Positions 29,591-44,984 of a stretch of 45,034 nt of DNA are shown one piece after another (within the stretch, counting starts at the first letter, position 1; each line of letters begins with the position of its first letter). A program made the translations under genes and the position numbers. Origin of the DNA: a virus; UHGV virus genome UHGV-0114729; one strand, written 5' to 3'. The notes beneath the pieces are model-generated. The model was given only the letters and a program-made list of their open reading frames with translations, searched no databases and was not told the DNA's origin.

Positions 29591-30251
29591 GGTCACCACC
29601 TTGCACCTGAACCAGCGTGAGGTTTCCGCAAAACACCGCTCCTGTGTCGATGTACATCTGGTTGGCATACTTCAGGGGCTGGCGCGCAGGGGTGTGGCCG
29701 AAGATAAACAGATCAGCACCGGCTATCGGCGAGACAATGCCGCCCTGAGCGTCGCTAACCCGCTCACGATTCCAGATGACCATGTCTTTCGGGACCGGCT
29801 TCTCGAACGCATATTCGTTATGCGGGTAGTCAGCGTGGCAAATTACGATTTTCCGATCGGAGGTAACCAGCTCGATGATGAGTGGTAACTCAGCTGCCTT
29901 GTGAACCAGAGCCTTAGCCAGCACCTCTTTGTCATAGTCGAGATTGAAGAACCAACCGCCACCGTTTACCAGCCAGTGATTGACGTTTCCATGCTCTGAA
30001 AGCCCATCAACCATCATCTGCTCATGGTTACCGCTCACTGCCCTGAACCACGGCATAGTAATCAGATCCAGGCACTCGACGTTTTCCGCGCCGCGGTCAA
30101 CAAGGTCACCAACCGAGATCAGCAAATCACGCGCAGGGTCGAACGAAACCTTTTCGAGCTCATTCATCAGCAGCGTGTAGCACCCATGCAGATCGCCGAC
30201 GACGAAGATATTGCGCCAGTCAGCGCCATTAATTCGTTGATACATGCTCAT
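29583..30251 (-). CDS. ninI: Ser/Thr protein phosphatase NinI
   Basis: GDLHGCY, GDLVDRG and GNHE metallophosphatase motifs. Highly similar to lambda NinI. Its ATG overlaps the NinE-like stop. Confidence 0.93.
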
Positions 30252-30418
30252 GCTGATTTTCTCCTCGCTGCGAGACGCAGCCATTTCTGATCCACCAGGC
30301 GGGCGGTGTAGTCTTTCAGGGTCGGGATATCGGATGGCTTAACCGCGGGCTTAGGCTTGCGGCGCGCCGGAACGCGGAAGATTTCATTGGTGATGACGCG
30401 AGAAAGTGGAGTAGACAT
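30248..30418 (-). CDS. ninE: NinE-like small protein (56 aa)
   Basis: My own translation gives [56 protein letters not shown]. It resembles the lambda NinE C-terminal half. Coupled to both neighbours. Confidence 0.6.
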
Positions 30419-30873
30419 CAGGCCTCCTGCTTATCGCGCAGTTGCTGGTACTCGCAGCCGGTCGGGATAGTCAGCGCCAGGCCGAACTGAGCGCACCACA
30501 TTTCAACCTTCACCAGGAAGATATGCATTTCCCCGGTGTCGAGGTCTGCGGTGTGGCGCGGCTCCCAGGTGGTGGTCTTCTCACCGGTGATGAAGTCGGT
30601 ATAAGTCACCTCTTCGCAGCCGAGATAGGTCTTTTTGAGGTTGCGCTTAACCCACTCTGGGGTAGCGTCAGTGCGCCCGGATTTAATCAGGTATTCACTG
30701 ATTTCAGCCAGCCACATATGAAGAAGTGAATTTTGAGACAGGCTGCGCTTCTCTCTCCACGGCTTAATTTGAAGGCGGAAGCATTGCCCGTCATTCAGAA
30801 GTGGGTGAAGGTGCTGGGTGATAGCATTAATATTGCCACGATGTAGCTTGATGCCGTCTTTTGGGAGAATCAT
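30418..30873 (-). CDS. ninB: NinB (Orf) recombination mediator
   Basis: RSLSQNSLLHMWLAEIS parallels lambda NinB RSLDQNRKLWACLGDVS. Confidence 0.85.
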   Translation of the reverse strand: MILPKDGIKLHRGNINAITQHLHPLLNDGQCFRLQIKPWREKRSLSQNSLLHMWLAEISEYLIKSGRTDATPEWVKRNLKKTYLGCEEVTYTDFITGEKTTTWEPRHTADLDTGEMHIFLVKVEMWCAQFGLALTIPTGCEYQQLRDKQEA

Positions 30874-30965
30874 ACGTCACCTCCGAGAGGTAACGCAGAA
30901 TGCAGAAAATCGCAGGTGCCGTTAAGCATCTGTGACAAGGTGATACGTTCAAGTTGTGGTCGCAT
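30870..30965 (-). CDS. Possible 31-aa ORF coupled to the ninB start
   Basis: ATGA overlap with the ninB ATG. No other support. Confidence 0.25.
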   Translation of the reverse strand: MRPQLERITLSQMLNGTCDFLHSALPLGGDV

Positions 30966-31053
30966 TTAATGTCCCCATCAAATGCGCAGAAGTCTTACCG
31001 TCGGGCGTTCAACTCCGACGGCGACTTAATTATGGCTGGTTGATTACTGAAAA

Positions 31054-31638
31054 TCAAAGGTCTTCTTCGTCTTGGTATTTCAGCCTTTTGTCTTTTATTT
31101 TCTGAAGTCTTTCCTCAAGCGCTGGAAGAACCCACTTTGCAAGTTCGGTAGCAGGGAAGCCATTCTCTTTACGGATTCCCGAAGCAATCTCAGCAGCTTT
31201 TAATCCAAGTAAGGAAAACTGGTATTGTCTCTCATCGAAGTACTCTCGATGATCTGGAGGTGAAGACATGTATTCACCGACAAAATTAATAGATTTTATA
31301 GCCTCATTTTGCTTCATTGGAAGGCTGCAAATTTCATACATTGTTTTAGATTTCAGAGACTTCCAGTTTCCCTTAACTAATGAATAGTCAATTTTTTCAG
31401 GAAGCTTTGTTGTAGATTCATACTCACCTTGCTCACCATTAGCCTCGCCATCATCCTGGACAACCTCAGCACACTTAACAGCATAGTTTTCAAGGAGGAA
31501 TACCAATTCTGCACAAATGAATTTTCTTTCTGGGCTAGACTGCTTATTTTCTTTGAACCACCCGATAAAGTGGTTTGCACCATGGCCTATTACTGCCCCG
31601 ATTGCACCACCGATCATTGAACCAACCCACAGTTCCAT
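31054..31638 (-). CDS. Membrane-anchored 194-aa orphan (N-terminal glycine-zipper TM helix)
   Basis: GGGAG RBS. MELWVGSMIGGAIGAVIGHGANHFIGWF is followed by a soluble domain. Part of the AT-rich island. Confidence 0.75.
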   Translation of the reverse strand: MELWVGSMIGGAIGAVIGHGANHFIGWFKENKQSSPERKFICAELVFLLENYAVKCAEVVQDDGEANGEQGEYESTTKLPEKIDYSLVKGNWKSLKSKTMYEICSLPMKQNEAIKSINFVGEYMSSPPDHREYFDERQYQFSLLGLKAAEIASGIRKENGFPATELAKWVLPALEERLQKIKDKRLKYQDEEDL

Positions 31639-31647
31639 TTAGGCTCC

Positions 31648-31911
31648 CTATTTAGTATTGGCTTCTGTCATTTCTATGTAACGTGGATCGCTTGCCTTAG
31701 GAAGTTTCAAACTCTCCTCCCGATAATGTCTCAACCGTTCAAGGAAATAATCTCGCAAATGCTCGGGCTGCTCGCGCATAACCACTTCGGCGATAACCGG
31801 CATGTTCAGCCGCTCTTTGTACGCCACGCCGGAGGCTGCAAGGTCAACGTTAACCTTGTCGCGTTCCTCTTGGCTCTTTGCAGCAATATTGAAGTCGTTC
31901 ATAATCATCAA
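31648..31911 (-). CDS. 87-aa orphan, co-transcribed upstream partner of the 194-aa gene
   Basis: 9-nt spacing to the next gene. AT-rich. No recognisable motif. Confidence 0.6.
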
Positions 31912-31967
31912 CTCATTCGTTTTAATAGAACGTATCTTACGTCAGATAACCGCTGCTGAGACCAATT

Positions 31968-32147
31968 ATGCGCGCAAAGATCCATCGTTACTGCTCATGG
32001 ATATTTTTTATCGTACTTTTCCTGTTCCTGTTTGCTCTCTATCAGAAAGCGTACTTGGGTGTCGCCCTCAATCAAATTATCATTGCAACGCTTGCCGTTA
32101 CTGGTTTTCTCGGTTGGATTACGAGAGAAAAGCATCCCAAGAATTGA
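31968..32147 (+). CDS. 59-aa two-TM small hydrophobic protein, divergent from the 87-aa gene
   Basis: My own translation gives MRAKIHRYCSWIFFIVLFLFLFALYQKAYLGVALNQIIIATLAVTGFLGWITREKHPKN*. Followed by the hairpin GGCCACT-atga-AGTGGCC. Weak RBS. Below the track cut-off. Confidence 0.5.
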   Translation: MRAKIHRYCSWIFFIVLFLFLFALYQKAYLGVALNQIIIATLAVTGFLGWITREKHPKN

Positions 32148-32193
32148 GTAAATGGCCACTATGAAGTGGCCGGCTCATCGTAAAAATTAGCGT

Positions 32194-32562
32194 TCAAATG
32201 CCATCGGCACCCTGAAGCATGGCGGCGCGGCAGGCGTTCCAGCCGACTGCTTTTCCATGCTCAAACGCGCTGTCAAAGTCATCATCCATTTCCATCGAAT
32301 CAGGCACAGATACCGGCGCTGGAGGGGCGGTGTAAAGCGGCGTTACTTCTCGCAGCGGGTCGGCATAAGCATTGCCACTATCGAAGCTGACGTTGTTTTT
32401 TGCGCCGCCGCCTGACAGCAGCCACGCCACCGGCTCCGCTTCGAGCGATGCCAGCGCGATACGCGCCAGCTCATTCAGGATTGCCACATCAGCGTGACCG
32501 AGGGTGTATCCAGCTTTCAAATCGGCAACTGCTTGCACGGCCTGTTTGGTAATAGTGCTCAT
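32194..32562 (-). CDS. Hypothetical nin-region protein (122 aa)
   Basis: Backbone GC and packed arrangement. The ..PVAW...TPLYTAPP... pattern is common in lambdoid early-region ORFs. Confidence 0.7.
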   Translation of the reverse strand: MSTITKQAVQAVADLKAGYTLGHADVAILNELARIALASLEAEPVAWLLSGGGAKNNVSFDSGNAYADPLREVTPLYTAPPAPVSVPDSMEMDDDFDSAFEHGKAVGWNACRAAMLQGADGI

Positions 32563-32572
32563 AGGCTAGTCC

Positions 32573-32755
32573 TCAGTATCCAGAGTACGCGCGGAGTGAT
32601 GCTATTCTCGCGGTGATATCATTGATGATTTCCTGCACCACCACTGCGTGCTCATGCTCATCACGCAAGATGTCAAGGGCGCTGTCTATTTCACGGAGCA
32701 TATCCTGCTGCCATTCAATATCTTCTGATTCCGGTATTTCGTATTTCATGCTCAC
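32573..32755 (-). CDS. Hypothetical 60-aa acidic protein
   Basis: Its start overlaps the stop of the upstream gene. Confidence 0.6.
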   Translation of the reverse strand: MSMKYEIPESEDIEWQQDMLREIDSALDILRDEHEHAVVVQEIINDITARIASLRAYSGY

Positions 32756-33090
32756 TCTCCTTTACCGGCTGCGGCAATGTTGATGCCAGCTCTTTCTAGC
32801 ATTGCGACAACCTCGGATTCCTCATAGCACGCTATTTTTCCAGCCCATAGGCGAGTAGTTGGCAGTTTCACAGTGGGTTTATTGCGCTCCATCTTCCGAA
32901 TTAACTCTGAAGCAGAATCGTGAGCCTCGCGGAAAGATCGGGCCTGAAGGAGCATATCCTCATAGCGTTCTTCTGAGGCTTCCAGCTCATCCAGCAGCGC
33001 CAGCACATCGCGAGTTTCCACGAACATATTCGGGTCGAAGTTATCGACCGCTTTAGCCGCGGCTGATTTCAATTTGTCGATGTTGCTCAT
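32752..33090 (-). CDS. Hypothetical 112-aa protein
   Basis: Overlapping start and stop with its neighbours. Confidence 0.65.
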   Translation of the reverse strand: MSNIDKLKSAAAKAVDNFDPNMFVETRDVLALLDELEASEERYEDMLLQARSFREAHDSASELIRKMERNKPTVKLPTTRLWAGKIACYEESEVVAMLERAGINIAAAGKGE

Positions 33091-33575
33091 TGGGCCTCCT
33101 GGCGAAGTTGGGCCGCGAACTGTGCTGCAACCGCTCCGGCATCCATGAAGAAGTCATAGGATTTTTCCAGCGCTTTCTGCTCGCAGTGTTTAACTAACAT
33201 CTCCACGCCCTGCGCCCGCACTTCAGCCAGGAAGGCGTCGGTTGCTGGGGTTTCAGGAATAGTGTCTGGAATAACTTCTGAGTAAATGCGATCCATTGCT
33301 TCGAGCCATCCATATTCACAGGCGTTATAACCGTCAGTCTGAAGACCGTTATCCTCAACACCACAGCCCATTCCGATGCTTTGATAATCAGGCTCGTTAC
33401 TGCGGTCAATCACTGCTGATAGAGTGCCTTTCAGCCACGCATTCTCCGCAGCCAGCGCCGCGAATGTGGTTTCAACCACGTTAAGCAAAGTCGTAACCTC
33501 TTCAGGCGACATGTGCTCACCACATTCGGCATTCACCCTGGCATTTTTAATCAGATCTTCGTATTTATTGCTCAT
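33087..33575 (-). CDS. Ea22/Ead-like hypothetical protein
   Basis: The C-terminal ETPATDAFLAEVRAQGVE...FAAQLR motif is recurrent in enterobacterial prophage early proteins (from memory). Likely start is MSNKYEDL. Confidence 0.65.
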   Translation of the reverse strand: MSNKYEDLIKNARVNAECGEHMSPEEVTTLLNVVETTFAALAAENAWLKGTLSAVIDRSNEPDYQSIGMGCGVEDNGLQTDGYNACEYGWLEAMDRIYSEVIPDTIPETPATDAFLAEVRAQGVEMLVKHCEQKALEKSYDFFMDAGAVAAQFAAQLRQEAQ

Positions 33576-33916
33576 ACCCCTGCCCTCCCCCAAACCATCA
33601 ATACTCGCTTCATCGCCGCGCTGTTGCGGCACTCCTGGCAGATCACGTTTGCCTCTGTACGCTGCACCAGCTTCGAATTTCCCTTCGGCATAGCCGGGAT
33701 TGTTTCTGGTGCGTATTTCATGCCGTAATCGGTCAGCCGATAAAGCCGCTGTCCGTGCTTGCCTTCGAACTCGATCAAGCCGTCTGCCAGCAGCGTGCTC
33801 ACCGTTCCGGATATCTTTTTGGTGGTCATGCCGATCATGCTGGCAATACGAGCACTGTTCAGGCCCGGGTTGTTACGCAGGGCTGCAAGAATCTGCCCGC
33901 GGATTGTTATGGTCAT
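33572..33916 (-). CDS. Winged-helix DNA-binding protein (114 aa)
   Basis: The segment ILAALRNNPGLNSARIASMIGMTTKKISGTVSTLLADGLIEFE looks like an HTH/wHTH. Confidence 0.65.
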   Translation of the reverse strand: MTITIRGQILAALRNNPGLNSARIASMIGMTTKKISGTVSTLLADGLIEFEGKHGQRLYRLTDYGMKYAPETIPAMPKGNSKLVQRTEANVICQECRNSAAMKRVLMVWGRAGV

Positions 33917-34767
33917 GCTGCCCCCTTAGAACGGTAAGAATCCCACGTGAATGACAGAGTGCACCCGCCGCCATCGCTCATGCGGTCAAGAACGCGCTCG
34001 CCGATGAATGCTGCCAGCTCTTCCCTTGTCTGGTTGCTGATCAGGATGGTCGGCTTCATACGCTCATAACGGGTGTTGATGATTTCGAACATGATCAGCT
34101 TCTCGGCCTCGCTGCCGAACTGGACGCCAACTTCGTCGATGATCAAAAGGTCCGGAGTGGTGAAGTGCGCAATCACGTCGTTCTCGCAGCGCTTCGCTGT
34201 TTTCGACCACGTTGATTTGAATTCGCGGGCAATCTTCAGCGCGGTGGTGAAAATTACCGGGCTCTGGTGGTTCTCGATGACATAACGGGCGATCGCCAGG
34301 GCGAGGTGGTTTTTACCGGTTCCCGGCTTGCCGCACATCACCAGGCCACCACCCTGCTTCAGGCGCTCTGGCCACTTCGCGGCATACGCCTGGCAAACCC
34401 GCAGCGCGCGCTCTGACTCCTTCCCCACCGGCTGATAGCTTTCCAGCGTGCACGTTACAAAGCGCTCAGGGATTTCGAGCTGGCGCAGCAGGCGATCGAT
34501 GTTCTGCTGGCGCGTGCGGTCTTCCCACCGCTTTTTCTCGTCATACAGGAAGGTCAGCTCATCGCGAAGGCAGCCCGGACAACGAGTCGGCGGTGACGGC
34601 AGCTTGATCAGGCTGCTGGTAAGCACGCGTTTACGCTGTTCGTACTCGCCATGTTTCTCGCAAAGCACTGTTTCGAAGACGGTCTCGCAGTTAGGGAGCT
34701 GCTCTGGAGGTCTACCAAGGACTTCCAGCATTTTTTCGATAGCGTCGATTTTTTCGAGCAGTTCCAT
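33913..34767 (-). CDS. DnaC/IstB-like AAA+ helicase loader (P analogue)
   Basis: Walker A GKPGTGKNHLA, Walker B LLIIDEVG, and an N-terminal Cys pairs region. Confidence 0.88.
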   Translation of the reverse strand: MELLEKIDAIEKMLEVLGRPPEQLPNCETVFETVLCEKHGEYEQRKRVLTSSLIKLPSPPTRCPGCLRDELTFLYDEKKRWEDRTRQQNIDRLLRQLEIPERFVTCTLESYQPVGKESERALRVCQAYAAKWPERLKQGGGLVMCGKPGTGKNHLALAIARYVIENHQSPVIFTTALKIAREFKSTWSKTAKRCENDVIAHFTTPDLLIIDEVGVQFGSEAEKLIMFEIINTRYERMKPTILISNQTREELAAFIGERVLDRMSDGGGCTLSFTWDSYRSKGAA

Positions 34768-34769
34768 AC

Positions 34770-35639
34770 TCAGTCCCTCGCCCAAGATGGAATTTCAGTC
34801 TGGCCATAGTCCTTGCCAGCGAAGTTCTCAGATACGCGAGACTGATTGCGGGCTGGCTGCTTGATGCCTTTCGGCTCAAACAATCCCTGCCAGCCGTTCG
34901 CAATGCTCTGGTTGATGATTTCTTCAGGCTGATATCCGCTGCACTTGCAACGCTCGAGCAGGTTGATGGCCTGGGTAACCGTCTGCTGAGACTTGATCGG
35001 TTTCTTCAGGTCGCGACGATAATCGACCCATGACTTCCAGACTGAAACTGACAGCCATTCAGGAAGGTCAACACCAGCCGGATCGAACGAAGCATGTTTG
35101 GGGGATTTAGGGGGTTTATTAATATTGTCTTTATTGTCTTTTGTAATAGTGTCTTTTGTGTGTCCCCATTTTGGTGACAGGGTTGTCACTGTTTTGGTGA
35201 CACTTTTTGTCACCACCGTAGGGACACTGTCACTACCATGGTGACAGTCACTACTATGGTGACATTTTGGCGCAGGCTTAGTGCCAGGAATTACCCACTC
35301 ACTCAGGTTTTTGTTGGGCCCGATCAGCATGCCGTCGGACACCAAAACATTCATCGCAATGAGTTCGTTTTTGGCAGCGTTAACCTTCTGGCGAGGTAGC
35401 CTGGTCAGCTCAGAAAGTTGTGAGTCTGCTATGCGGTCCATCTTTTTGTTGAACCCATAGGTTTTGCGGCAAACAGCATGAGCTACCTTGGCCTGATTTT
35501 TGGTCAGGTTCGCGCCGATAAGCTCCTCATACAACTCGTTTGCCAGACGGGTGTACCCATCGTCTGTATCGGCCACGCGTTGCTCCTGTATTCCCGAAAC
35601 TACAGCGGGAAAGTTGAGAATTTCTGCGGTGTTTGACAT
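34770..35639 (-). CDS. O: Replication initiator O
   Basis: The N-terminal domain is highly similar to lambda O (MSNTAEILNF...DDGYTRLANEL...TKNQAKV...RKTYGFNK.MDRIADSQLSE). Contains the ori iterons. Confidence 0.92.
   Translation of the reverse strand: MSNTAEILNFPAVVSGIQEQRVADTDDGYTRLANELYEELIGANLTKNQAKVAHAVCRKTYGFNKKMDRIADSQLSELTRLPRQKVNAAKNELIAMNVLVSDGMLIGPNKNLSEWVIPGTKPAPKCHHSSDCHHGSDSVPTVVTKSVTKTVTTLSPKWGHTKDTITKDNKDNINKPPKSPKHASFDPAGVDLPEWLSVSVWKSWVDYRRDLKKPIKSQQTVTQAINLLERCKCSGYQPEEIINQSIANGWQGLFEPKGIKQPARNQSRVSENFAGKDYGQTEIPSWARD
35105..35264 (-). repeat. ori: Origin of replication: GGTGACA/GTCAC iterons (35173-35264) followed by an AT-rich tract with TGTCTTT repeats (35105-35165)
   Basis: At least four direct GGTGACA copies plus inverted GTCAC copies inside O. 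Layout matches lambda ori. Confidence 0.8.
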
Positions 35640-35648
35640 ACTTACTCC

Positions 35649-35715
35649 CGTTACTTGGCGTAACACAGTGTGATAAGGGCCTTTGAAGTTACCGCTTCAA
35701 GGGCTTTTTCTTTTC
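35649..35715 (+). ncRNA. oop: oop-like antisense small RNA (candidate)
   Basis: A plus-strand terminator (GGGCCTTTGAAG-ttaccg-CTTCAAGGGCTT plus TTTTTCTTTTCTT) whose G-U pairs become A-C mismatches on the other strand. Candidate promoter is TTGAGA-N17-CATACT at 35614-35642. Position (between the CII analogue and O) matches lambda oop. Confidence 0.45.
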
Positions 35716-35724
35716 TTGTGCCTC

Positions 35725-36270
35725 TCATATAACCCCCAGCATCGATGTAACCATCGTCATCAGCGGTCCTACCTGCTCCGGCATGAGGCGGAACAGCGAC
35801 GCTATACCCTCGCTTACCTCTTTGAGCTTCTGATGCTCTGGAGCGTCCAGCAGCACGGCCTGTTTAGCCTCGGCACACTCTTTCATCGCAGAGGCGATCA
35901 GCGACATCGTGTCGTTCTGCGGCGCCAGACGGTTTCGGTACTCCAGCGGCAGGACCGACATGATTGCCGGGGCCAGCTGGCGAATGTTGTTGGCGGCATA
36001 TTCGGTATCGCCATCAATCCATCGAAACACTTTCTGCATCTGGCGGTGCGAGTCAGTCGGGATATCCAGACCGGTTCCGCCGGACGCCCGCCACTCTTCC
36101 ACGATCAGCGCGGCGACAAATTCACGGCTTCGGCAATCAGCTGCCCAGGCGCGAACAGCTGCGCGGATCCCATCGATGTTTAACGCCGTGGAATCAGGCT
36201 CCCGGCGATTCTGGTAAATCATCGCCGTTGGCGAAAATTTGTTACCTTGTTGATACGCAAGTGAATGCAT
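35725..36270 (-). CDS. YdaT-family protein (CII functional analogue)
   Basis: 181 aa. The ..EEWRASGGTGLDIP....Q.VFRWI.GDTE.....I.QLAPAIMSVLPLEYRNRL pattern parallels E. coli Rac YdaT as recalled. Located directly after cro. Confidence 0.65.
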   Translation of the reverse strand: MHSLAYQQGNKFSPTAMIYQNRREPDSTALNIDGIRAAVRAWAADCRSREFVAALIVEEWRASGGTGLDIPTDSHRQMQKVFRWIDGDTEYAANNIRQLAPAIMSVLPLEYRNRLAPQNDTMSLIASAMKECAEAKQAVLLDAPEHQKLKEVSEGIASLFRLMPEQVGPLMTMVTSMLGVI

Positions 36271-36287
36271 TGCTTTCCCTTTCGTGG

Positions 36288-36521
36288 TTAGGCCGCAGTA
36301 TCACGCGGCGATGCGAATACCAGGCTTTCTTTTAGGACCGGAGCCTGGCGGTGAAAATTCTTCGTGCCTTTCTCGATAGCAGATGCCATTTCTGGAGATG
36401 CCCGGCGATTTCCGTAGGCGATCTGGTCCAGGTAACCTGGCGTCGTGTTAGCCAACTTTGCGAGCTGCGCCCATTCGTCGGTAGTGGCGGCCTTGCGCCA
36501 GCGGTGTAGTTCAGTGCTCAT
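36288..36521 (-). CDS. cro: Cro / YdaS-like HTH repressor
   Basis: 77 aa, divergent from cI across the operator region. HTH segment is WAQLAKLANTTPGYLDQIAYGNR. Confidence 0.8.
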   Translation of the reverse strand: MSTELHRWRKAATTDEWAQLAKLANTTPGYLDQIAYGNRRASPEMASAIEKGTKNFHRQAPVLKESLVFASPRDTAA

Positions 36522-36553
36522 TGGTGTCTCCGGGTGAGTCGTTTGATTTGGAG

Positions 36554-36619
36554 TTTAGCGTTATGCTAAATACTACGCAAGCATCATTTAGCAATTTGCA
36601 CATTTATCATTTTGCTAAA
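36554..36619. promoter_or_regulatory. OR operators / pR-pRM region
   Basis: TTTAGC-GTTAT-GCTAAA (36554-36570), a degenerate copy near 36587-36603, and TTTATC-ATTTT-GCTAAA (36603-36619). Confidence 0.7.
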
Positions 36620-36637
36620 AGCAGTAACAATGCAGGT

Positions 36638-37315
36638 ATGGAAAATAAAGAAATCAGAAAAGCCAACCTGGAAGCGCTGTACGAGAAGCGTCAGCACGAG
36701 TCTGGAATGACCAAAGCGCAGTTTGCCGAGCTCATCGAGACAAGTCCGGCTGCGCTTAGCCAGCTACTGGGACCAAACCCTCATCGCAATATCGGCGATA
36801 AGATGGCTCGCAAAATTGAAACTGCGCTTGATCTGCCTTTTGGCTGGATGGATGTTTTACACGCCAGTGAAGAACCTTCGAACGTTGCATTTCGAGGACT
36901 GAACGAGACAAAAGGAAGTTATCCTGTAATCAGCTGGGTAAGCGCGGGGCAATGGATGGAAGCTGTAGAACCTTATCACCGAAGAGCGATAGATCGCTGG
37001 TATGACACGACTGTTGACTGCTCAGAAGATTCATTCTGGCTGGACGTTAAAGGGGATTCTATGACCTCCCCGGCTGGACTGAGCATACCCGAGGGAGCAG
37101 CGATACTTGTTGATCCTGAAGTCGAGCCGCGCAACGGAAAGCTGGTTGTCGCGAAGCTAGAAGGCGATAACGAAGCGACCTTTAAGAAGCTTGTAATCGA
37201 TGCCGGCAGACGCTTCCTAAAGCCCCTTAACCCCGCATATCCCATGCTAGAAATTAATGGAAACTGCAAAATCATCGGCGTTGTGGTTGATGCCAAAATA
37301 CTAAACATCCCATAA
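36638..37315 (+). CDS. cI: CI repressor (HTH + S24 LexA-like autopeptidase)
   Basis: HTH (MTKAQFAELIETSPAALSQL). GDSM Ser and FKKL Lys dyad. Start chosen at MENKEIRK. Confidence 0.92.
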   Translation: MENKEIRKANLEALYEKRQHESGMTKAQFAELIETSPAALSQLLGPNPHRNIGDKMARKIETALDLPFGWMDVLHASEEPSNVAFRGLNETKGSYPVISWVSAGQWMEAVEPYHRRAIDRWYDTTVDCSEDSFWLDVKGDSMTSPAGLSIPEGAAILVDPEVEPRNGKLVVAKLEGDNEATFKKLVIDAGRRFLKPLNPAYPMLEINGNCKIIGVVVDAKILNIP

Positions 37316-37334
37316 CCTCACGCAAAACCCCTCA

Positions 37335-37359
37335 AGCCCGCCATCGCGCGGGCTTTTTT
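37335..37359 (+). terminator. Rho-independent terminator after cI
   Basis: AGCCCGC-catcgc-GCGGGCT followed by TTTTTT. Confidence 0.8.
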
Positions 37360-37398
37360 ACGTCCCGAATTCCTTCGCTGTAAATTTTTAATCGCTTA

Positions 37399-37475
37399 TT
37401 AATCAATACGCTAAATAAAACCATTCAACAATTTAGCATTTTGCTATTGCGCATAATTTAGCATCACGCTAAATT
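37399..37475 (+). promoter_or_regulatory. OL operators and candidate pL
   Basis: TTAATC-AATAC-GCTAAA (37399-37415), TTTAGC-ATTTT-GCTATT (37432-37448), TTTAGC-ATCAC-GCTAAA (37457-37473). Candidate promoter is -35 TTGCGC (37447) with -10 TAAATT (37470). Confidence 0.6.
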
Positions 37476-37481
37476 TACCCC

Positions 37482-37891
37482 ATCGAAACGAAACATCGAC
37501 AGCTGAGCGAAGTTAGCCAGCGGCGGACAGCAAGTCGCCTGCTTTTTAACAACATGCAGATTTACAGCGTCAATGACCTGTTAAGACCCCTACACGTAAA
37601 CGTGCTGTATCACCGGGTGCGATCCGGTCGGTGAGAGAGTATCCCCGCGCGAGAGCGAGAACGGCGTGAGAACGGGCAACACTGGCAGGGAGTTGGCGCT
37701 GACCAATACAGGGAATGTTATGGGCTGTGGTGAAGGGTTCATGGACGGGAATATGTCGCACGTAAAGCGGCGAGGCCCGAGGAGCTATTGCCGAAGATAA
37801 GTAGGCCGAATCGGGTCGAAATGGGTCTCCCACCTACCACATCGCCAAAGCATTTCTCCCGCATCAGCGGGTAACGACAGAGGGTAAGTCA
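37482..37891 (+). other. Long untranslated, GC-rich pL leader (possible cis-acting or stable RNA)
   Basis: No ORF longer than about 26 codons in any plus frame, and no Arg-rich N-like ORF. Lies between pL and the first gene. Confidence 0.5.
37540..37552 (+). promoter_or_regulatory. boxA-like element (TGCTTTTTAACAA)
   Basis: One mismatch to the E. coli rrn boxA TGCTCTTTAACAA. Preceded by an imperfect hairpin (37519-37543). The pair could alternatively be a weak intrinsic terminator. Confidence 0.5.
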
Positions 37892-38560
37892 ATGATTCGT
37901 CTTAACAACGAAATTAAAAATCAGCTATGCCATAACCTGCTTCTCGCATCCCCATTGTTTGAGAAAGCGAAAGCTGCGGTTAATGAGAGGGCGAAAATTG
38001 TTGAAGAAATTCGACAGGCATTGCTCAAGCAGGAAAACACTAGCGATGAGCAAATAACTAAGGCTCGGGAAGATTTCAAAGATAACTCCTTCATCAAGAT
38101 GCAGGTCGGCGCTAAAACTGCAATTTTAAAGGTCATTATTAATGGTGAGTATCACGAATTAGCCAGGAACGGTTTGGATCATCGCTATCGCCACCGTGGA
38201 AAACATATTGGTAAGCACGATCTTGAAAGCGACCTGTTCTTCGGAGCTTCCTTCGCGCCTGTAATTGATTCGGGTTTCGTTCCTGAAAGTTACAGCACGC
38301 TGAAGAAAGTTGGAAAATTACACGACCGACTCACTGAATCGACGGTAACCATCAACGTTCTTTACGATGAAGTTGATGCCTTCCAATTGCAGGTTAAAGG
38401 TGCTCTAACCAAAGTCTCAACTGTTAAAAAACTGGCTGAGATGTGGCCTGATGCAGTGCCATATTTGCCTGAGGTGGAACGCCGTGAAGCGACCAGCACC
38501 GCACTTGCCATTCCCGTTGAAACGCTAAACGCCCTTTGCGGCATACCAAAGAATGAATGA
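37892..38560 (+). CDS. Orphan 222-aa protein, first gene of the pL operon
   Basis: Clean ORF followed by its own terminator. The N-terminal MIRLNNEIKN.. and C-terminal ..VSTVKKLAEMWPDAVPYL remind me of the Nmad5 family, but I cannot verify this. Confidence 0.7.
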   Translation: MIRLNNEIKNQLCHNLLLASPLFEKAKAAVNERAKIVEEIRQALLKQENTSDEQITKAREDFKDNSFIKMQVGAKTAILKVIINGEYHELARNGLDHRYRHRGKHIGKHDLESDLFFGASFAPVIDSGFVPESYSTLKKVGKLHDRLTESTVTINVLYDEVDAFQLQVKGALTKVSTVKKLAEMWPDAVPYLPEVERREATSTALAIPVETLNALCGIPKNE

Positions 38561-38582
38561 CCCGCTCCGGCGGGTTTTTTAT
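38561..38582 (+). terminator. Rho-independent terminator after the 222-aa gene
   Basis: CCCGC-tccg-GCGGG followed by TTTTTTAT. Confidence 0.85.
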
Positions 38583-38721
38583 CGGCCATACATAGGCAGA
38601 TTTTCGAGTCTGCCCATTTATGACAACCGGCGGCCATCCACCGCCCATTGAAACACTGAATAAATGCGTTGAAGTCTTGTATTAACCGTTCCGTTCGCCG
38701 CGATAAGGCCAAGAGGAAATC

Positions 38722-38928
38722 ATGGTAAACCAGCACTACGGTACACAGACAGTAAACCGCGGCGCAGTTCAGCCGGGGATGCTCGTCAAACACAAGGATT
38801 CAACCTGGACGGCATCAGCTAATGCTCGTGGTCGTTTGTATCTGCATCGCGGCGTTGAGATGACTTACACCAGGGATTTGCTGGTTGAAGTTTATCTGAA
38901 CGGTCTGGGGCATGGACTCAGCCACTAG
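38722..38928 (+). CDS. Hypothetical 68-aa protein
   Basis: AGAGGA RBS. No recognisable motif. Confidence 0.55.
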   Translation: MVNQHYGTQTVNRGAVQPGMLVKHKDSTWTASANARGRLYLHRGVEMTYTRDLLVEVYLNGLGHGLSH

Positions 38929-38939
38929 CGGAGGATGTC

Positions 38940-39101
38940 ATGTTAGACAAGAAATGCGGATATTGCGGCAAGCCGGTTAAAACGGAGGAAGTAATCAAGA
39001 GCACCCTTCTCTATCGCAACGGCTCACAGCTGGCGCGCAAAGAAAAAGAGTATTGCTCCAAACGTTGCGCTTCGCACGACCAGATGGCTCACGAAGGCTA
39101 A
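38940..39101 (+). CDS. 53-aa zinc-ribbon protein
   Basis: GGAGG RBS 6 nt upstream. My own translation gives MLDKKCGYCGKPV...EYCSKRCASHDQMAHEG* (CxxC...CxxxC). Below the track cut-off. Confidence 0.6.
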   Translation: MLDKKCGYCGKPVKTEEVIKSTLLYRNGSQLARKEKEYCSKRCASHDQMAHEG

Positions 39102-39240
39102 CGTAAAACCCGCGCAAGGCGGGATCTACGTCCGGTGGTACCGACCAAAGTTACACCGGAAACAACATTAAAACCAAAGTTAACCCAATGGGCGCTATCA
39201 ATGGTCCGGGGATTCTAACACCCAAAAAAGAGGATCTCAC

Positions 39241-42150
39241 ATGGAATTTTTCCATCTGATAAAAGCCAGTCAGAAGTCTGGTAAGAAAGATGCAGTGATT
39301 TGGTTCACTGCGAAAAGTGTAGCGCGCGCCAATCTCCAACTCGATGTGGCACTGGAAGAAGCCGGAATTGAAGAAACTGGCCGCGGTAAAGATTATGCCA
39401 AACCAATCCGCACCGATTTCCCGGTATATGACGACCTGCCGGAAGAAGGCGCAGTGGATTACACCTGGTGCGAACGCTACGAACTGCAGAACGATGACCG
39501 CACCTGGCTGCCAAAAGTCACAGCTGAAAACTCTGACGAGAAAACGGCTCAGACCGTTGATAGTCACATAACTACTGAGTCAACGCTGCCAGAAACCGCT
39601 GGCATCACGCTGGACGAACACGACGACGACTCAACCCTCTACCCGGTAGTGCAGATGCCGTTTCGTAAGCAACTGCTTTCCCAGTTCACCGCCGACGAAC
39701 TGCGCCACCACGTAACCCACGAAGAGTACGAAGCTATCGGCGCGCTGGAGATGGACACTGATAACAGTTACGTCCAGAACTTGCTGTTAGCTGCTGAGAA
39801 CTGCCCGGAAGTGAAGGGTTACGACACCAAAGACCTGTGGCGCTACACCGATGCCATTCGCAAAGTGTTCAGCCAGGACAAGCGTCACGAACTCGCGCTG
39901 GTACTCCGTTTCACCAGAATGTGGGCGGCGACTGATTACATTGACCGTGGCATCCTGGCGCGTGAATGGGCCGCCGGTAATCGCATCAGTAGTGTGCAGC
40001 GTACTGATTCCGGCACTAATGCCGACGGCGGTTACGTCACTGACCGTGGACCTGACGCACACCACACACTGGACACTCTCGATTTAGAGATTGCGTGTGC
40101 CCTTCTGCCTATGGACTTCAACCACTTCGAGATCCCGGGCAGCATTCTTCGTCGCGCTAAAGAAATCGTGACCAAAAAAGAAGAACCATGGAAATCATGG
40201 AGCAACATCCTGCGCAATCAGCCAGGCGTTCTGGGTGTTAACCGCACGGCTATTTTTAACCTGGTACGTATCGCACCGGAAAATATTCATTTAACTCCTG
40301 TCGCTCACCTGGAATTTGTTAACCAGACCATGACAGCCGCGTTCAATTCCGCGGTCGAGTTATTGCCGTTGCATGAGGCTGAACCCGCAACACAGGAAAT
40401 TCCCCAACCTGAAGGTAAGGAGTCTCCGCGCAAATCCTTCTGCACTCACGAAGAGAACCTGCAACGCGTGCGTGAAGAAGGAGCACGCCGCCGCGCAGAG
40501 GAAGCGGCAGCACAACAGCAGAAAGTCGAACAAGAACTGGTTAAAAATGTCGGCAACGGAATATTCGACGTTACGGCTTTGCTGCAGAACTCAGCAACTC
40601 ATGGCACGAAAAAGGCTACGGAGACCACCAGCAATGTGCAGGTTCAAGAAACTGTCAGTGATGAAAAACAAGCTGGTGATGAAGTACAGCTAGGCGAAAG
40701 CAGTCTGGAGTCTGGTGAAGAGTCACATCCCGGCCAGAAGGACGATGTAAACCAGAATACGGATTCTGTCGCCAAAAATAGCGATTCTGTAAGCCAAACC
40801 GAACCAGTTGCAGCACAAACCGAGCCAGAAGCGCAATCTGACGAACCAGCTGTTGTTTATCCCGCTTATTTCGAGCCAGGCCGCTATGAAGGGCTGCCAA
40901 ACGAGGTTTACCACGCCGCCAACGGCATCAGCTCAACCCAGGTGAAAGATGCGCGCGTTTCGCTGATGTACTTCAATGCGCGCCACGTAGAGAAAACCAT
41001 CGTCAAAGAGCGCTCAGCGGTGCTGGACATGGGCAACTTGGTGCATGCGCTGGCGTTGCAGCCTGAACTACTGGACGCAGAATTCAGCGTTGAACCGGTG
41101 ATCCCTGAAGGCGCATTCACAACGGCCGCGACCCTGCGCGCCTTTATCGATGAGCACAATGCCAGCCTGCCGGCGCTGCTGTCTGCCGACGACATCAAGG
41201 TGTTACTGGAAGAGTACAACGCCACCCTGCCGCCGCAGGTTCCGCTTGGCGCTAACCTGGAAGAAACGGCACAGAACTATATGGCGCTGCCAGCTGACTT
41301 CCAGCGTATTGATGGTGACCAGAAGCAGACGGCGACGGCAATGAAGGCATGCATTAAAGAGTACAACGCCACCCTGCCGCCGCCGGTTAAAACCAGCGGC
41401 AGCCGTGACGCGCTGCTGGAGCAGTTGGCAATCATCAACCCTGACCTTGTGGCTCAGGAAGCACAGAAACCGGCACCACTGAAAGTGTCCGGTACCAAAG
41501 CAGACATGATCCAGGCCGTGAAGGCAGTCAAACCAGATGCCGTATTTGCCGACGAACTGCTGGATGCCTGGCGCGATAACCCGGAAGGAAAAGTGCTGGT
41601 CACCCGCCAGCAGCTGAGCACCGCGCTGAATATTCAAAAAGCGCTTCTGGCACACCCGACCGCCGGCATGCTGCTGACCCACCCTAGCCGAGCCGTTGAG
41701 GTGAGCTACTTTGGTTTTGACGAGGAGACGGGCTTGGAAGTTCGTGTGCGCCCTGACCTTGAGATCGACCTGGATGGCGTGCGTATAGGTGCAGACCTGA
41801 AAACCATCAGCATGTGGAATGTTAAGCAGGAAAGCCTGCGCGCCAGGCTACACCGGGAAATTATTGAACGTGATTATCACCTGAGCGCGGCTATGTACTG
41901 CGAAACCGCAGCGCTGGATCAGTTCTTCTGGATTTTCGTCAACAAAGACGAGAACTACCACTGGATCGCCATCATCGAGGCATCCGCTGAACTACTGGAG
42001 CTGGGTATGCTCGAGTACCGCAAAGCGATGCGCAATATCGCAACCGGATTCGACACAGGTGAATGGCCAGCGCCAATCACTGCTGACTACACCGACGAAC
42101 TGAACGACTTCGACCTGCGCCGCCTTGAAGCGCTGCGTACTCAGGCATAA
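39241..42150 (+). CDS. recE: RecE-like exodeoxyribonuclease VIII (969 aa; C-terminal PD-(D/E)XK domain)
   Basis: C-terminal region has GLPNEVYHAANGISSTQVK, ..RPD.., and ..GADLKT.. (the D...DxK motif). The long acidic N-terminal extension resembles Rac RecE. Located directly upstream of the annealing protein. Confidence 0.85.
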   Translation: MEFFHLIKASQKSGKKDAVIWFTAKSVARANLQLDVALEEAGIEETGRGKDYAKPIRTDFPVYDDLPEEGAVDYTWCERYELQNDDRTWLPKVTAENSDEKTAQTVDSHITTESTLPETAGITLDEHDDDSTLYPVVQMPFRKQLLSQFTADELRHHVTHEEYEAIGALEMDTDNSYVQNLLLAAENCPEVKGYDTKDLWRYTDAIRKVFSQDKRHELALVLRFTRMWAATDYIDRGILAREWAAGNRISSVQRTDSGTNADGGYVTDRGPDAHHTLDTLDLEIACALLPMDFNHFEIPGSILRRAKEIVTKKEEPWKSWSNILRNQPGVLGVNRTAIFNLVRIAPENIHLTPVAHLEFVNQTMTAAFNSAVELLPLHEAEPATQEIPQPEGKESPRKSFCTHEENLQRVREEGARRRAEEAAAQQQKVEQELVKNVGNGIFDVTALLQNSATHGTKKATETTSNVQVQETVSDEKQAGDEVQLGESSLESGEESHPGQKDDVNQNTDSVAKNSDSVSQTEPVAAQTEPEAQSDEPAVVYPAYFEPGRYEGLPNEVYHAANGISSTQVKDARVSLMYFNARHVEKTIVKERSAVLDMGNLVHALALQPELLDAEFSVEPVIPEGAFTTAATLRAFIDEHNASLPALLSADDIKVLLEEYNATLPPQVPLGANLEETAQNYMALPADFQRIDGDQKQTATAMKACIKEYNATLPPPVKTSGSRDALLEQLAIINPDLVAQEAQKPAPLKVSGTKADMIQAVKAVKPDAVFADELLDAWRDNPEGKVLVTRQQLSTALNIQKALLAHPTAGMLLTHPSRAVEVSYFGFDEETGLEVRVRPDLEIDLDGVRIGADLKTISMWNVKQESLRARLHREIIERDYHLSAAMYCETAALDQFFWIFVNKDENYHWIAIIEASAELLELGMLEYRKAMRNIATGFDTGEWPAPITADYTDELNDFDLRRLEALRTQA

Positions 42151-43794: not shown

Positions 43795-44984
43795 CTGAAG
43801 GGCTCTCCGATGATCTCTTCAAGATGGCTCTGCCAAACGCGGAGCCAGTGTTTCTGATCATCGATATAGTCATGAAGGTTGTAATGCGCCATAACCCCCA
43901 CCATCTGATGCCCGAGCAGCTTTTCAATTACGTGCGGCGGGCAACCTAACTCAGAGAGATTTGTGGCTATCGTCCGCCTCATATCATGAAGCGACCACTC
44001 TGCCATACCTGTTCCATTCCAAATAGAACGGGCGTAATTGGATGCCACAGGTGAATGAACGGGCGAATCTTTGATCCCGCCATCAATTTTACGTTGTGAA
44101 GTCACCAGGTGATTGGTGTTTATTTTCTTGAGGTGATTTCTGACCAGGTTAACGGCGGCGTCTGAGAGTCCCCTTCTAATATGTACCCGAGTTTTATAAC
44201 TGCCCGCAGGCACGACCCACTCATTATCATCCAATCGAAACCATGATCTCTCACTAAGTCGAATCTCAGCCGTACGGCATCCGGTAAGCATAATAAATTT
44301 CACCAGGAAAACGGACTCTATCGACATATGGCTTTTCAACCACTGATAGATTTTGCGCAGATCGTCATCGTCCATCCTGCGAGTTCTCTTTTTAGGCTTT
44401 TGCCCGACATCAGATGGCAGTAATCCCTCGAGTGGGTTTGAGGCGATCACACTTCTGTTAACGCAGAACCTAAACGCCCGTTTGCACAGCGAAAGCATGT
44501 AATGAGCCATCACCCTGCTTTCTATAGAATCGAAGACGTTGATCCAGTGCATTTTCGCTGTGTTATCGACTTTGACATTCTTCATCGGTTCGGCGATATG
44601 TTTCTCAAACACCTGGCGATAGTAATCGACTTTAACTAGCCCGTTAGCGATACAGTGCCTTTCAATCCAGTAATTGAACGCTTCGGCAACGGACATCGCT
44701 TCCTGTCGGGTCTGCTTATCCAGCTTCACCTGCTCTCGCGGATCCAGTCCCTCAGTTAACCAGTTTCTGAATTGTTGGCGACGCTCTCTTGCCTGGGTGA
44801 TACTCATTGCAGGATAATCACCAACATTGAGTTTTACCGCTTTACCGGCCCAGCGATACCGATAGAAAAATGATATTTTTCCGGCCTGGCTGATTCTGGC
44901 GTTGAGCCCGTGCGAATCAGAAATAATCTCGATATCATCTCTTTTCTTGCCGAGCGCCTTCCTGAGCTTTGTGTCGGTGATCAT
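43791..44984 (-). CDS. int: Tyrosine integrase (P4/CP4-57-like, N-terminal DUF4102-type arm-binding domain)
   Basis: The C-terminal catalytic region contains R (TGCRTAEI), H..R (HDMRRT) and ..GH...VMAHY (Tyr). The likely start [10 protein letters not shown] is at 44984; the track ORF extends to a GTG at 45029. Confidence 0.92.

What the first reader, a model, noticed from the sequence alone, without database searches (positions are those of the whole stretch)
37892..38582. Self-terminated 222-aa orphan occupies the first position of the pL operon
SEEN:
- A clean 222-aa ORF immediately follows the leader.
- It is followed by a perfect terminator (CCCGC-tccg-GCGGG-TTTTTT).
- It therefore forms a gene-plus-terminator cassette ahead of the recombination genes.
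- It has a basic patch (DHRYRHRGKHIGKHD).
- The ends of the protein (MIRLNNEIKN... and ...TVKKLAEMWPDAVPYL) remind me of the Nmad5 (nucleotide-modification-associated) family. That is an unverified recollection.

INFERENCE: As the earliest product after derepression, it is positioned like anti-restriction, anti-defence or host-takeover genes (ral, gam and kil positions in lambda). It could conceivably be the missing antitermination factor.
Basis: inference. Interest (0 to 1): 0.5.

Follow-up and report, generated by a model that had tools for sequence, protein, structure and literature searches.

The report
Nmad5 gene cassette replacing phage N
The 222-aa gene is not an orphan: it belongs to the widespread phage protein family Nmad5, whose function is unknown, and it is one of more than 40 interchangeable gene-plus-terminator cassettes found just after the early-left promoter of phi80-like prophages, so it is an accessory early gene and probably not the missing antiterminator.

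Summary
There is an ATG ORF at 37892-38560 (222 aa) with a good Shine-Dalgarno sequence. An intrinsic terminator at 38559-38582 starts inside its stop codon. It is the first ORF after pL.

It is not an orphan. It gives a full-length Pfam Nmad5 match (E 3e-29) and a PHROG 1965 match. RefSeq already names the identical protein "Nmad5 family putative nucleotide modification protein".

The leader 37475-37888 is 99.5% identical to the phi80 pL leader, including nutL. Exactly phi80 N plus tL1A has been swapped for Nmad5 plus its terminator.

The swap point is a conserved linker made of a hairpin and a Shine-Dalgarno sequence. In at least 120 viral contigs this linker precedes more than 40 unrelated small ORF families, and 105 of 111 of these are followed by a terminator. 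So being "self-terminated" is a property of a hypervariable cassette slot, not of this gene.

An antiterminator role is unlikely:
- An 80%-identical homologue sits in the same operon as a Pfam N_peptide gene.
- Relatives occur in virulent phages.
- The protein is folded, neutral in charge and lacks an arginine-rich motif.

No DNA-modification enzymes are present in the prophage, and the predicted fold has no solved relative.

The best guess is an inference: a stand-alone, early, non-enzymatic host-interaction or counter-defence protein. In Dhillonvirus, a K-to-E change at the residue equivalent to K180 gives escape from the Tmn defence.

The parts
37447..37475 (+). pL promoter (TTGCGC-17 nt-TAAATT) inside the repeated GCTAAAT/ATTTAGC operators
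   Evidence: The -10 at 37470-37475 aligns with the annotated phi80 pL -10, and homology to the phi80 transcript starts at 37475. The hexamers were read directly.
37475..37891 (+). phi80-type pL leader (about 410 nt), with an rrn-like boxA TGCTTTTTAACAA (37540-37552) and a boxB-like hairpin CACGTAAACGTG (37593-37604)
   Evidence: 99.5% identity over 414 nt to phi80 positions 2501-2914 of L001. The nutL boxA and core annotations were transferred by position. The first 50-65 nt are conserved in 101 of 120 related viral contigs.
37846..37891 (+). Conserved cassette linker: hairpin CCCGC-ATCA-GCGGG (37858-37871), then TAACGACAGAGGGTAAG carrying the Shine-Dalgarno sequence (37880-37884)
   Evidence: The same 45 nt precede phi80 N, HK225_040, partly HK225_039, and every lambdoid Nmad5 copy. 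There is one copy in the window and none in shuffles. At least 120 viral contigs carry the core.
37892..38560 (+). Nmad5-family gene, 222 aa
   Evidence: Pfam PF18757 E 3.4e-29. PHROG 1965 E 1.4e-48. RefSeq name. Purifying selection. AF2 model with pLDDT 84.4 and pTM 0.77.
38559..38582 (+). Intrinsic terminator that closes the cassette, at the position of phi80 tL1A
   Evidence: It is conserved with the cassette. 105 of 111 cassettes in this slot end the same way.
38600..38717 (+). Conserved segment downstream of the slot, where homology to phi80 resumes
   Evidence: 94% identity to phi80 L001 positions 3249-3366.
38722..38928 (+). kil-type cell-division inhibitor gene, the next gene in the pL operon
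   Evidence: ORF list. The identical region in strain W619 is annotated 'phage encoded cell division inhibitor protein'.

Best explanation
The ORF is a member of the Nmad5 protein family (Pfam PF18757). It is carried on one interchangeable cassette of a hypervariable slot that lies directly after pL in phi80-, HK225- and Rac-like lambdoid prophages.

Each cassette has three parts: a conserved linker (a small hairpin plus a Shine-Dalgarno sequence), a variable ORF, and an intrinsic terminator. Homologous recombination at the conserved linker and at the terminator or downstream segment swaps cassettes. In this prophage that exchange replaced phi80-type N plus tL1A with Nmad5 plus its terminator.

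The cassette has no promoter of its own, and the cI terminator lies upstream. The protein is therefore made only when pL is derepressed, as the first and, because of the terminator, probably the most abundant pL product. This expression step is inferred.

Function is also inferred. The protein works alone, has no catalytic-looking conserved residues, and carries a strongly conserved C-terminal motif (T177..K180-L181..W185-P186-D/E187..P193..L212-N213..G217-x-P219). It most likely binds a host or defence component early in infection, as a takeover or counter-defence factor. It probably does not modify DNA or act as an antiterminator.
For: Identity:
- Pfam, PHROG and RefSeq agree.

Exact replacement of N plus tL1A:
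- Shown by alignment to annotated phi80.

Cassette slot:
- The same linker precedes different genes.
- The Nmad5 cassette occurs in at least 8 upstream contexts at 97-100% identity.
- The linker core occurs in at least 120 viral contigs, ahead of more than 40 unrelated ORF families.
- 105 of 111 cassettes are followed by a terminator.
- In about 24 of 101 loci the cassette lies only 187-300 nt from the pL 5' leader.

Expression from pL only:
- No promoter-like site was found, and a strong cI terminator lies at 37334-37355.

Accessory and mobile:
- 8 of 5426 complete E. coli genomes carry it, all at least 99.7% identical, in three or more contexts.

Autonomous:
- There is no conserved neighbouring gene across phage groups.
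- All 287 family representatives are stand-alone proteins of about 180-250 aa.

Non-enzymatic look:
- Family-wide conserved residues are G, P, W and L plus T177, E/D187 and N213.

Link to defence:
- In Dhillonvirus, K296E in nmad5 gives escape from Tmn, deletion does not, and the gene is toxic to clone (PMC11846954).
- K296 aligns with K180 of the window protein, inside the conserved motif.
- Tmn is known to sense an early phage protein directly, RIIB in T2 (PMC13001434).

Slot content:
- The proteins resemble early accessory proteins: median 86 aa, median pI 5.15, and all ten of the commonest cassette families checked have unknown function in PHROGs.
Against: - No experiment exists on this protein or on any lambdoid copy.
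- The Tmn result comes from a homologue that is only 26% identical, and it is a gain-of-function allele, so it does not define the wild-type role.
- The protein is larger and less acidic (222 aa, pI 7.07) than most known anti-defence proteins and than its slot neighbours.
- In M6-like phages, a gene that the source paper labels Nmad5 (its relationship to this protein was not checked here) sits next to thymidine-hypermodification enzymes (PMC9476957), so a nucleic-acid-related role is not excluded.
- With N gone, it is unclear how genes beyond the terminator are expressed. The arrangement could be a partly crippled prophage in which position says little about function.
Confidence: 0.5

Rival explanations
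1. Nmad5 is an analogue of N. It would be a processive antiterminator that acts on the retained phi80 nutL or on RNA polymerase, and so lets pL transcription pass its own terminator.
For: - It sits exactly where phi80 N sits, behind an intact nutL boxA and boxB.
- No N homologue or arginine-rich small ORF was found elsewhere in the window.
- The only intrinsic terminator within the pL operon is the one right after it; the next + strand site lies at 43825-43847, towards the operon's distal end.
- In Guernseyvirinae phages it is the first or second gene of the early rightward operon.
Against: - An 80%-identical homologue shares an operon with a Pfam N_peptide protein, E 2e-13.
- Other copies follow the basic 70-aa HK225_041-type protein.
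- The same slot holds more than 40 unrelated ORFs, and the isolated phage CobraSix has a different cassette first and no N.
- The protein is neutral, folded and has no arginine-rich motif.
- Homologues occur in tail modules and in antisense islands among head genes.
Confidence: 0.05
2. It is an accessory subunit of a DNA base-modification pathway, as the family name suggests. It would target or scaffold a modifying enzyme on phage DNA.
For: - In M6/SN1-type phages, a gene that the source paper labels Nmad5 is the first gene of the thymidine-hypermodification cassette, next to aGPT-Pplase, a nucleotide kinase, and radical-SAM and PLP enzymes (PMC9476957).
- RefSeq and Pfam use this name.
- The authors of the Tmn paper interpret their result this way.
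Against: - No modification enzyme is encoded in this prophage, either in the RefSeq annotation of the near-identical W619 prophage or in Pfam scans of the segments that differ.
- No such neighbours are seen in Dhillonvirus, Guernseyvirinae, eiAU or the other lambdoid contexts.
- The family has no conserved catalytic-type residues.
Confidence: 0.12
3. It is an accessory factor for phage recombination or replication. For example, it could protect DNA ends or load or regulate RecET, Bet-Exo, Erf or the replisome.
For: - In lambdoid phages it lies upstream of kil and recombination genes.
- In Guernseyvirinae it heads the operon that encodes an exonuclease, a single-strand annealing protein and DNA polymerase.
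- The T2 trigger of Tmn is a replisome-associated protein.
- It has a basic beta-hairpin at residues 96-110.
Against: - The association with recombination genes in lambdoid phages follows simply from where the slot lies.
- More than 40 unrelated ORFs share the same position.
- Homologues occur in tail and head regions.
- The basic hairpin is not conserved across the family.
- No known DNA-binding fold was detected.
Confidence: 0.13
4. It is a moron or lysogenic-conversion gene, for example a superinfection-exclusion gene, expressed from the prophage for the benefit of the host.
For: - It has a gene-plus-terminator architecture, and its distribution is patchy and recently mobile.
- A homologue is reported to be toxic.
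Against: - No promoter-like site lies between pL and the gene.
- The cI transcript is closed by a strong terminator.
- Family members are common in strictly virulent phages.
Confidence: 0.05

Closest known systems
Nmad5 (PF18757) of Dhillonvirus phages such as PhiSMS22 and PhiSMA8
   Same: Same Pfam family. The two align end to end at 26% identity (E 1e-14). They share the N-terminal MRLT start and the C-terminal T-x-K-K-L-x3-W-P-E ... L-N-x2-C-G-x-P motif. The Tmn-escape residue K296 corresponds to K180 here.
   Different: The Dhillonvirus gene sits in a two-gene island antisense to the head genes of a virulent phage, not in a pL operon. It carries about 35 extra residues inserted in the beta region. 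Only that homologue has any genetic data.
Nmad5 of M6/SN1-type Pseudomonas phages (thymidine-hypermodification cluster)
   Same: Both carry the Nmad5 label; for the M6/SN1 gene this is the source paper's own label and was not checked here (tblastn with the window protein did not list Pseudomonas phage records among the hits shown). That gene is likewise placed at the head of an early DNA-metabolism operon (PMC9476957).
   Different: There it is flanked by aGPT-Pplase, a kinase, and radical-SAM and PLP enzymes. Here no such enzyme is present.
phi80 gene N plus terminator tL1A
   Same: Identical genomic position. The leader is the same up to 3 nt before the start codon, the Shine-Dalgarno region is the same, and both are followed at once by an intrinsic terminator and then by the same downstream segment.
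   Different: There is no sequence similarity. phi80 N is 98 aa, and this protein is a folded 222-aa protein. phi80 N is itself just one of the cassettes found behind this linker (5 of about 120 loci). It belongs to an 'unknown function' PHROG and to no Pfam N family.
Accessory early genes just after N in lambda and P22 (ral; P22 gene 17). From my own knowledge.
   Same: They are promoter-proximal pL genes that are dispensable for growth and deal with host restriction or exclusion. They occupy the same general location between N and kil.
   Different: No homology. Those genes are not known to be bounded by a repeated linker-and-terminator unit. An anti-defence role for Nmad5 is only inferred.
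Morons and conserved boundary or linker sequences of lambdoid phages (Juhala et al. 2000; Clark et al. 2001). From my own knowledge.
   Same: A discrete unit ending in a terminator is inserted between conserved genes. Short conserved intergenic sequences mark the module exchange points.
   Different: Classical morons carry their own promoter and are expressed from the prophage. This cassette has none. Here one junction type serves more than 40 alternative ORFs at a single slot.

Membership tests
Nmad5 (Pfam PF18757) | Full-length match to the family HMM above the gathering score | tested here: met
   102.8 bits against a cut-off of 27, E 3.4e-29, residues 2-219 on profile positions 1-206 of 206. 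Also PHROG 1965, E 1.4e-48.
Nmad5 (Pfam PF18757) | Stand-alone protein of about 200 aa with the conserved C-terminal W-P-E/D ... L-N ... G-L-P motif | tested here: met
   In a 155-sequence family alignment: W185 99%, P186 98%, N213 98%, L181 97%, T177 92%, L212 92%, P219 91%. The 150 best of the 287 family representatives are listed, mostly about 180-250 aa plus some shorter fragments; no longer multi-domain protein appears among them.
Nmad5 (Pfam PF18757) | Genomic association with nucleotide-modifying enzymes (the origin of the name) | tested here: not met
   There is no such enzyme in the prophage or next to the homologues examined. This association is seen only in M6-like phages (PMC9476957).
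Nmad5 (Pfam PF18757) | Biochemical role in nucleotide or DNA modification | not testable with these tools
   No member has a demonstrated activity. The fold has no solved relative.
Lambda-type N antiterminators | Small (about 80-130 aa), basic, largely disordered protein with an N-terminal arginine-rich RNA-binding motif | tested here: not met
   222 aa, pI 7.07, K+R = D+E = 31. Confidently folded alpha/beta model with pLDDT 84. The N-terminus MIRLNNEIKNQL has no arginine-rich motif.
Lambda-type N antiterminators | Sequence membership (Pfam N_peptide PF25694 or similarity to a known N) | tested here: not met
   Only Nmad5 was found.
Lambda-type N antiterminators | First gene of pL, directly after nutL and before tL1 | tested here: met
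   Shown by alignment to annotated phi80. This is positional only.
Lambda-type N antiterminators | One such factor per phage, that is, not found together with another N | tested here: not met
   The 80%-identical homologue in L008 and L032 lies downstream of an N_peptide protein, E 2e-13.
Lambda-type N antiterminators | Antitermination activity at nut-dependent terminators | not testable with these tools
   This needs a reporter assay or RNA-seq after induction.
Moron (promoter-gene-terminator unit expressed from the prophage) | Own promoter upstream of the gene | tested here: not met
   No sigma-70-like site on the + strand in 36000-40000. The consensus scan is a weak test.
Moron (promoter-gene-terminator unit expressed from the prophage) | Own intrinsic terminator downstream | tested here: met
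Phage counter-defence proteins (a functional class) | Demonstrated inhibition or evasion of a defence system | not testable with these tools
   The only evidence is indirect: the K296E allele of a 26%-identical homologue escapes Tmn (PMC11846954). There is no PADLOC hit, as expected for a phage gene.

The most novel reading that the evidence does not exclude
The segment right after pL in phi80-, HK225- and Rac-like lambdoid phages is a hypervariable array of terminator-delimited cassettes, with more than 40 ORF families that are almost all of unknown function. It would serve as a reservoir of counter-defence and host-takeover genes. Under this reading, Nmad5 is one such factor: an early protein that binds or is sensed by host immunity such as Tmn-type NTPases through its conserved C-terminal motif. 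The slot would then be a direct hunting ground for new anti-defence proteins.

An even more novel reading is not excluded, at about 5%: that Nmad5 itself supplies N-independent antitermination in this N-less phage.
Probability: 0.3. Interest if true: 0.6.

Novelty: already known. Interest (0 to 1): 0.33.

Why it matters
As a single gene it matters little. It is a catalogued member of a family whose function nobody knows.

Two by-products are more useful.

First, the gene shows how lambdoid early-left operons diversify. A conserved hairpin-plus-Shine-Dalgarno linker and a terminator bound a slot that exchanges dozens of unrelated small genes, and the gene called N in phi80 is one of them. If those genes are counter-defence factors, the slot is an easily mined catalogue.

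Second, this prophage keeps a phi80 nutL but has no recognisable N, and at least one isolated phage (CobraSix) has the same N-less layout. This raises a question that can be tested directly: how do such phages read through the cassette terminators?

For Nmad5 itself, the mapping of the Tmn-escape residue onto the most conserved motif gives a concrete mutagenesis target, K180.

Tried and rejected
RNA and structure searches:
- Rfam on the whole window at gathering thresholds found nothing. The region at E up to 10 gave only sub-threshold noise.
- Folding the conserved 5' leader gave z -0.5 to -0.8, so there is no sign of a put-like structured RNA.

Protein family and fold searches that gave no functional lead:
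- PADLOC and NCBIfam: no hit.
- A sequence profile against all PDB chains: no hit at E up to 1.
- Foldseek against PDB: nothing below E 2.7.
- BFVD: only other uncharacterised Nmad5 proteins.
- The afdb50 library was not available.

Collections and papers:
- The species-representative genome scan returned a single locus, an Enterobacter with 99% identity, so it gave no phylogenetic breadth.
- The paper I guessed to be the family's original description, under a PMC id recalled from memory, could not be read.
- A search for Nmad1-4 found nothing relevant.
- A literature search for a described hypervariable pL-proximal slot found nothing pertinent.

Searches for N and for partners:
- tblastn with lambda, phi80, HK225_041 and N_peptide-type proteins found no hidden N in the window. 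A scan for small ORFs with arginine-rich N-termini found nothing in the early region.
- A search for a conserved partner gene next to Nmad5 across phage groups found a shared neighbour only within Guernseyvirinae.
- The 215-aa gene that follows the same leader element in Stx phages is Rha-family, not Nmad5.

Slot content:
- PHROG and Pfam annotation of 20 other slot cassettes gave only unknown-function PHROG families, one DUF2528 hit, or no hit. The content of the slot therefore could not confirm an anti-defence theme.

Full report
**What is there.** The window is a lambdoid E. coli prophage. In strain W619 the near-identical element lies next to kch and carries head, terminase, lysis, Q, nin, replication, cro-like, LexA-type cI, kil, RecE/RecT and integrase genes. 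The ORF at 37892-38560 (+, ATG, 222 aa) is real. GAGGG lies 7 nt upstream of the start. Against homologues that are 70-73% identical in DNA, about 70% of nucleotide differences fall at third codon positions and about 70-75% of changed codons are synonymous. The TGA stop is overlapped by the stem of an intrinsic terminator, GACCCGC-TCCG-GCGGGTT followed by T6, at 38559-38582. It folds at -16.1 kcal/mol with z = -2.8.

**It is not an orphan.** Pfam gives a full-length Nmad5 (PF18757) match, E 3.4e-29 and 102.8 bits against a cut-off of 27. PHROGs gives phrog_1965, unknown function, E 1.4e-48. RefSeq annotates the identical protein as "Nmad5 family putative nucleotide modification protein". A profile search of 1.84 billion representatives finds 287 family members at E up to 0.001. 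The full-length ones among the 150 listed are stand-alone proteins of roughly 180-250 aa.

**It is the first gene of pL, in the place of N.** Positions 37475-37888 are 99.5% identical to the phi80 pL transcript. The match runs from the annotated -10 to 3 nt before the phi80 N start codon and includes the annotated nutL boxA and core. In the window boxA is TGCTTTTTAACAA at 37540-37552. From my own knowledge, that is one mismatch from the rrn boxA. Homology resumes at 38600. So exactly phi80 N plus tL1A (334 bp) has been replaced by Nmad5 plus its terminator (711 bp). No sigma-70-like promoter lies between pL and the ORF, and a strong terminator at 37334-37355 closes the cI transcript. Expression should therefore depend on derepression of pL. 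This is an inference.

**The cassette and its slot.** The 45 nt before the ATG are AAAGCATTTCTCCCGCATCAGCGGGTAACGACAGAGGGTAAG. They form a hairpin, CCCGC-ATCA-GCGGG, followed by the Shine-Dalgarno sequence. The same 45 nt also precede phi80 N, HK225_040 and (in part) HK225_039, as well as every lambdoid copy of Nmad5.
- In IMG/VR the Nmad5 cassette occurs at 93-100% protein identity behind at least eight different upstream sequences. It always has the same linker and terminator, and only the terminator loop varies.
- The ORF that follows the linker falls into more than 40 unrelated families of 42-222 aa. The phi80 "N" is one of them, with 5 loci, and Nmad5 accounts for 7.
- 105 of 111 complete cassettes, representing 76 of 81 distinct proteins, are followed within 60 nt by a hairpin and a T run.
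- In 101 of 120 loci the conserved pL 5' leader lies 187-1195 nt upstream. In about 24 of them it is only 187-300 nt away, so the cassette is the first ORF of the operon.
- Some loci carry cassettes in tandem.
- The linker hairpin has the same CCCGC/GCGGG stem as the cassette terminator. This suggests that each junction is a hairpin followed by a Shine-Dalgarno sequence.

"Gene plus perfect terminator" is therefore the general architecture of a hypervariable slot and not a peculiarity of this gene. Recombination at the conserved junctions explains how N was replaced. The slot proteins are small and mostly acidic, with median length 86 aa and median pI 5.15. Almost all are unannotated.

**Is it the missing antiterminator? 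Probably not.**
- The 80%-identical homologue in L008 and L032 lies three genes downstream of a protein that matches Pfam N_peptide at E 2e-13.
- Five other copies follow the basic 70-aa HK225_041-type protein.
- Relatives occur in virulent phages. In Dhillonvirus the gene is in a two-gene island antisense to the head genes. In Guernseyvirinae it is the first or second gene of the early operon that leads to an exonuclease, an annealing protein and DNA polymerase. It also occurs in eiAU. A 49%-identical copy and a Vibrio phage copy lie in tail-gene surroundings.
- The protein is neutral, with pI 7.07. It is predicted to be well folded: pLDDT 84.4, pTM 0.77, with N-terminal helices, a small sheet that includes the basic hairpin at residues 96-110, a long helix, and a C-terminal helix after a flexible linker. 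It has no N-terminal arginine-rich motif.

The window does appear to lack any N. That is not peculiar to Nmad5. The plaque-forming Enterobacter phage CobraSix has a different 212-aa cassette as its first pL ORF and no N either. In the window no intrinsic terminator lies on the rightward-operon strand between cro and Q, so lytic growth may not need N. This too is an inference. How transcription passes the cassette terminator in such phages remains unexplained.

**Is it a DNA-modification protein? Not supported here.** The family name comes from M6-like phages, where a gene labelled Nmad5 heads the thymidine-hypermodification cluster (PMC9476957). This prophage encodes no such enzymes, and neither do the neighbourhoods of the other homologues examined. 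Residues conserved across the family are structural (G85, G94, L181, W185, P186, P193, L212, G217, P219) plus T177, E/D187 and N213, with no catalytic-type set. The fold has no relative among solved structures. Among viral models it matches only other Nmad5 proteins. No partner gene is conserved across phage groups.

**Most likely role (inference).** It is probably an autonomous, early, non-enzymatic binding protein that deals with the host or its defences.
- It is rare: 8 of 5426 complete E. coli genomes carry it. All copies are at least 99.7% identical despite three or more contexts, which indicates recent horizontal spread.
- The only genetics in the family comes from Dhillonvirus. There nmad5 K296E (K216E in a second phage) lets the phage escape the Tmn defence, deletion does not, and the gene could not be cloned because of toxicity (PMC11846954).
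- K296 aligns with K180 of the window protein, inside the most conserved motif, T-V-K-K-L-x3-W-P-D.
- Tmn is reported to be activated by direct binding of an early phage protein, RIIB in T2 (PMC13001434).

None of this defines the wild-type activity. I put about 0.9 on identity and cassette architecture and about 0.4-0.45 on the host-interaction or counter-defence role.

**Verdict.** The gene itself is already catalogued, so its novelty is low. The transferable results are the description of the linker-ORF-terminator slot and the N-less but nutL-bearing layout.

Noticed in passing
window 37475-37888 (boxA 37540-37552, boxB-like hairpin 37593-37604): The prophage keeps a 99.5% phi80-type nutL leader with an rrn-like boxA, yet no N-like gene is detectable anywhere in the window. 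How the pL-distal genes are expressed past the terminator is unexplained.
   Followed up: partly
window 37846-37891; loci L052-L171: The linker before the ORF marks a hypervariable slot. At least 120 viral contigs carry it ahead of more than 40 unrelated ORF families. 105 of 111 of these are followed by a terminator. The proteins have median length 86 aa and median pI 5.15, and nearly all are unannotated. The gene called N in phi80 is one of these cassettes. It belongs to an 'unknown function' PHROG and does not match Pfam N_peptide.
   Followed up: partly
window 37540-37856; L013 (phage PA2) 2001-2317: This 317-nt part of the leader, starting at boxA, is about 95% conserved in roughly 160 Stx-converting phage records. 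In the one Stx phage examined (PA2) it lies after a restriction-modification gene pair and before a Rha-family gene rather than directly after pL. It behaves as a mobile non-coding module.
   Followed up: partly
window 37480-37543: The first 50-65 nt of the pL transcript are 96-100% conserved in 101 of 120 linker-bearing contigs that have unrelated immunity regions. Folding gives no significant structure (z about -0.5 to -0.8).
   Followed up: partly
L172 (Enterobacter phage CobraSix) 2260-3240: This isolated, plaque-forming phage has the same layout: pL leader, linker, then a different first ORF (212 aa, Cys-rich) and a terminator. No N-like ORF lies between pL and the slot.
   Followed up: partly
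L017 5885-5954: In one viral contig, ARAGORN predicts a 70-nt tRNA-Ile(GAT)-like gene between the pL leader and the linker of the Nmad5 cassette.
   Followed up: no
L015, around 5985-6000: One copy of the cassette has a 13-nt deletion between GGGTAA direct repeats in the linker. The deletion removes the GAGGG Shine-Dalgarno sequence in front of Nmad5.
   Followed up: no
L010 3353-3532 (E. coli L73); also L020: In some prophages the nutL part of the leader is replaced by a segment that carries an antisense ECs_2282-family zinc-binding protein gene, between pL and the Nmad5 cassette.
   Followed up: no
window 28819-36288, - strand: No intrinsic-terminator-like site lies on the rightward-operon strand between cro and the Q antiterminator gene (27992-28819, Pfam Antiterm E 2e-44). 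Delayed-early rightward transcription may therefore not need N.
   Followed up: partly
L002 (HK225) 3298-3510; L011 3378-3590; L012 3303-3515: A 70-aa protein with a basic stretch (LPKKRQKPRKQAIKEAQ) sits between the shared nutL leader and the slot in HK225-type phages. It could be that group's N analogue. It has no Pfam or NCBIfam match.
   Followed up: partly
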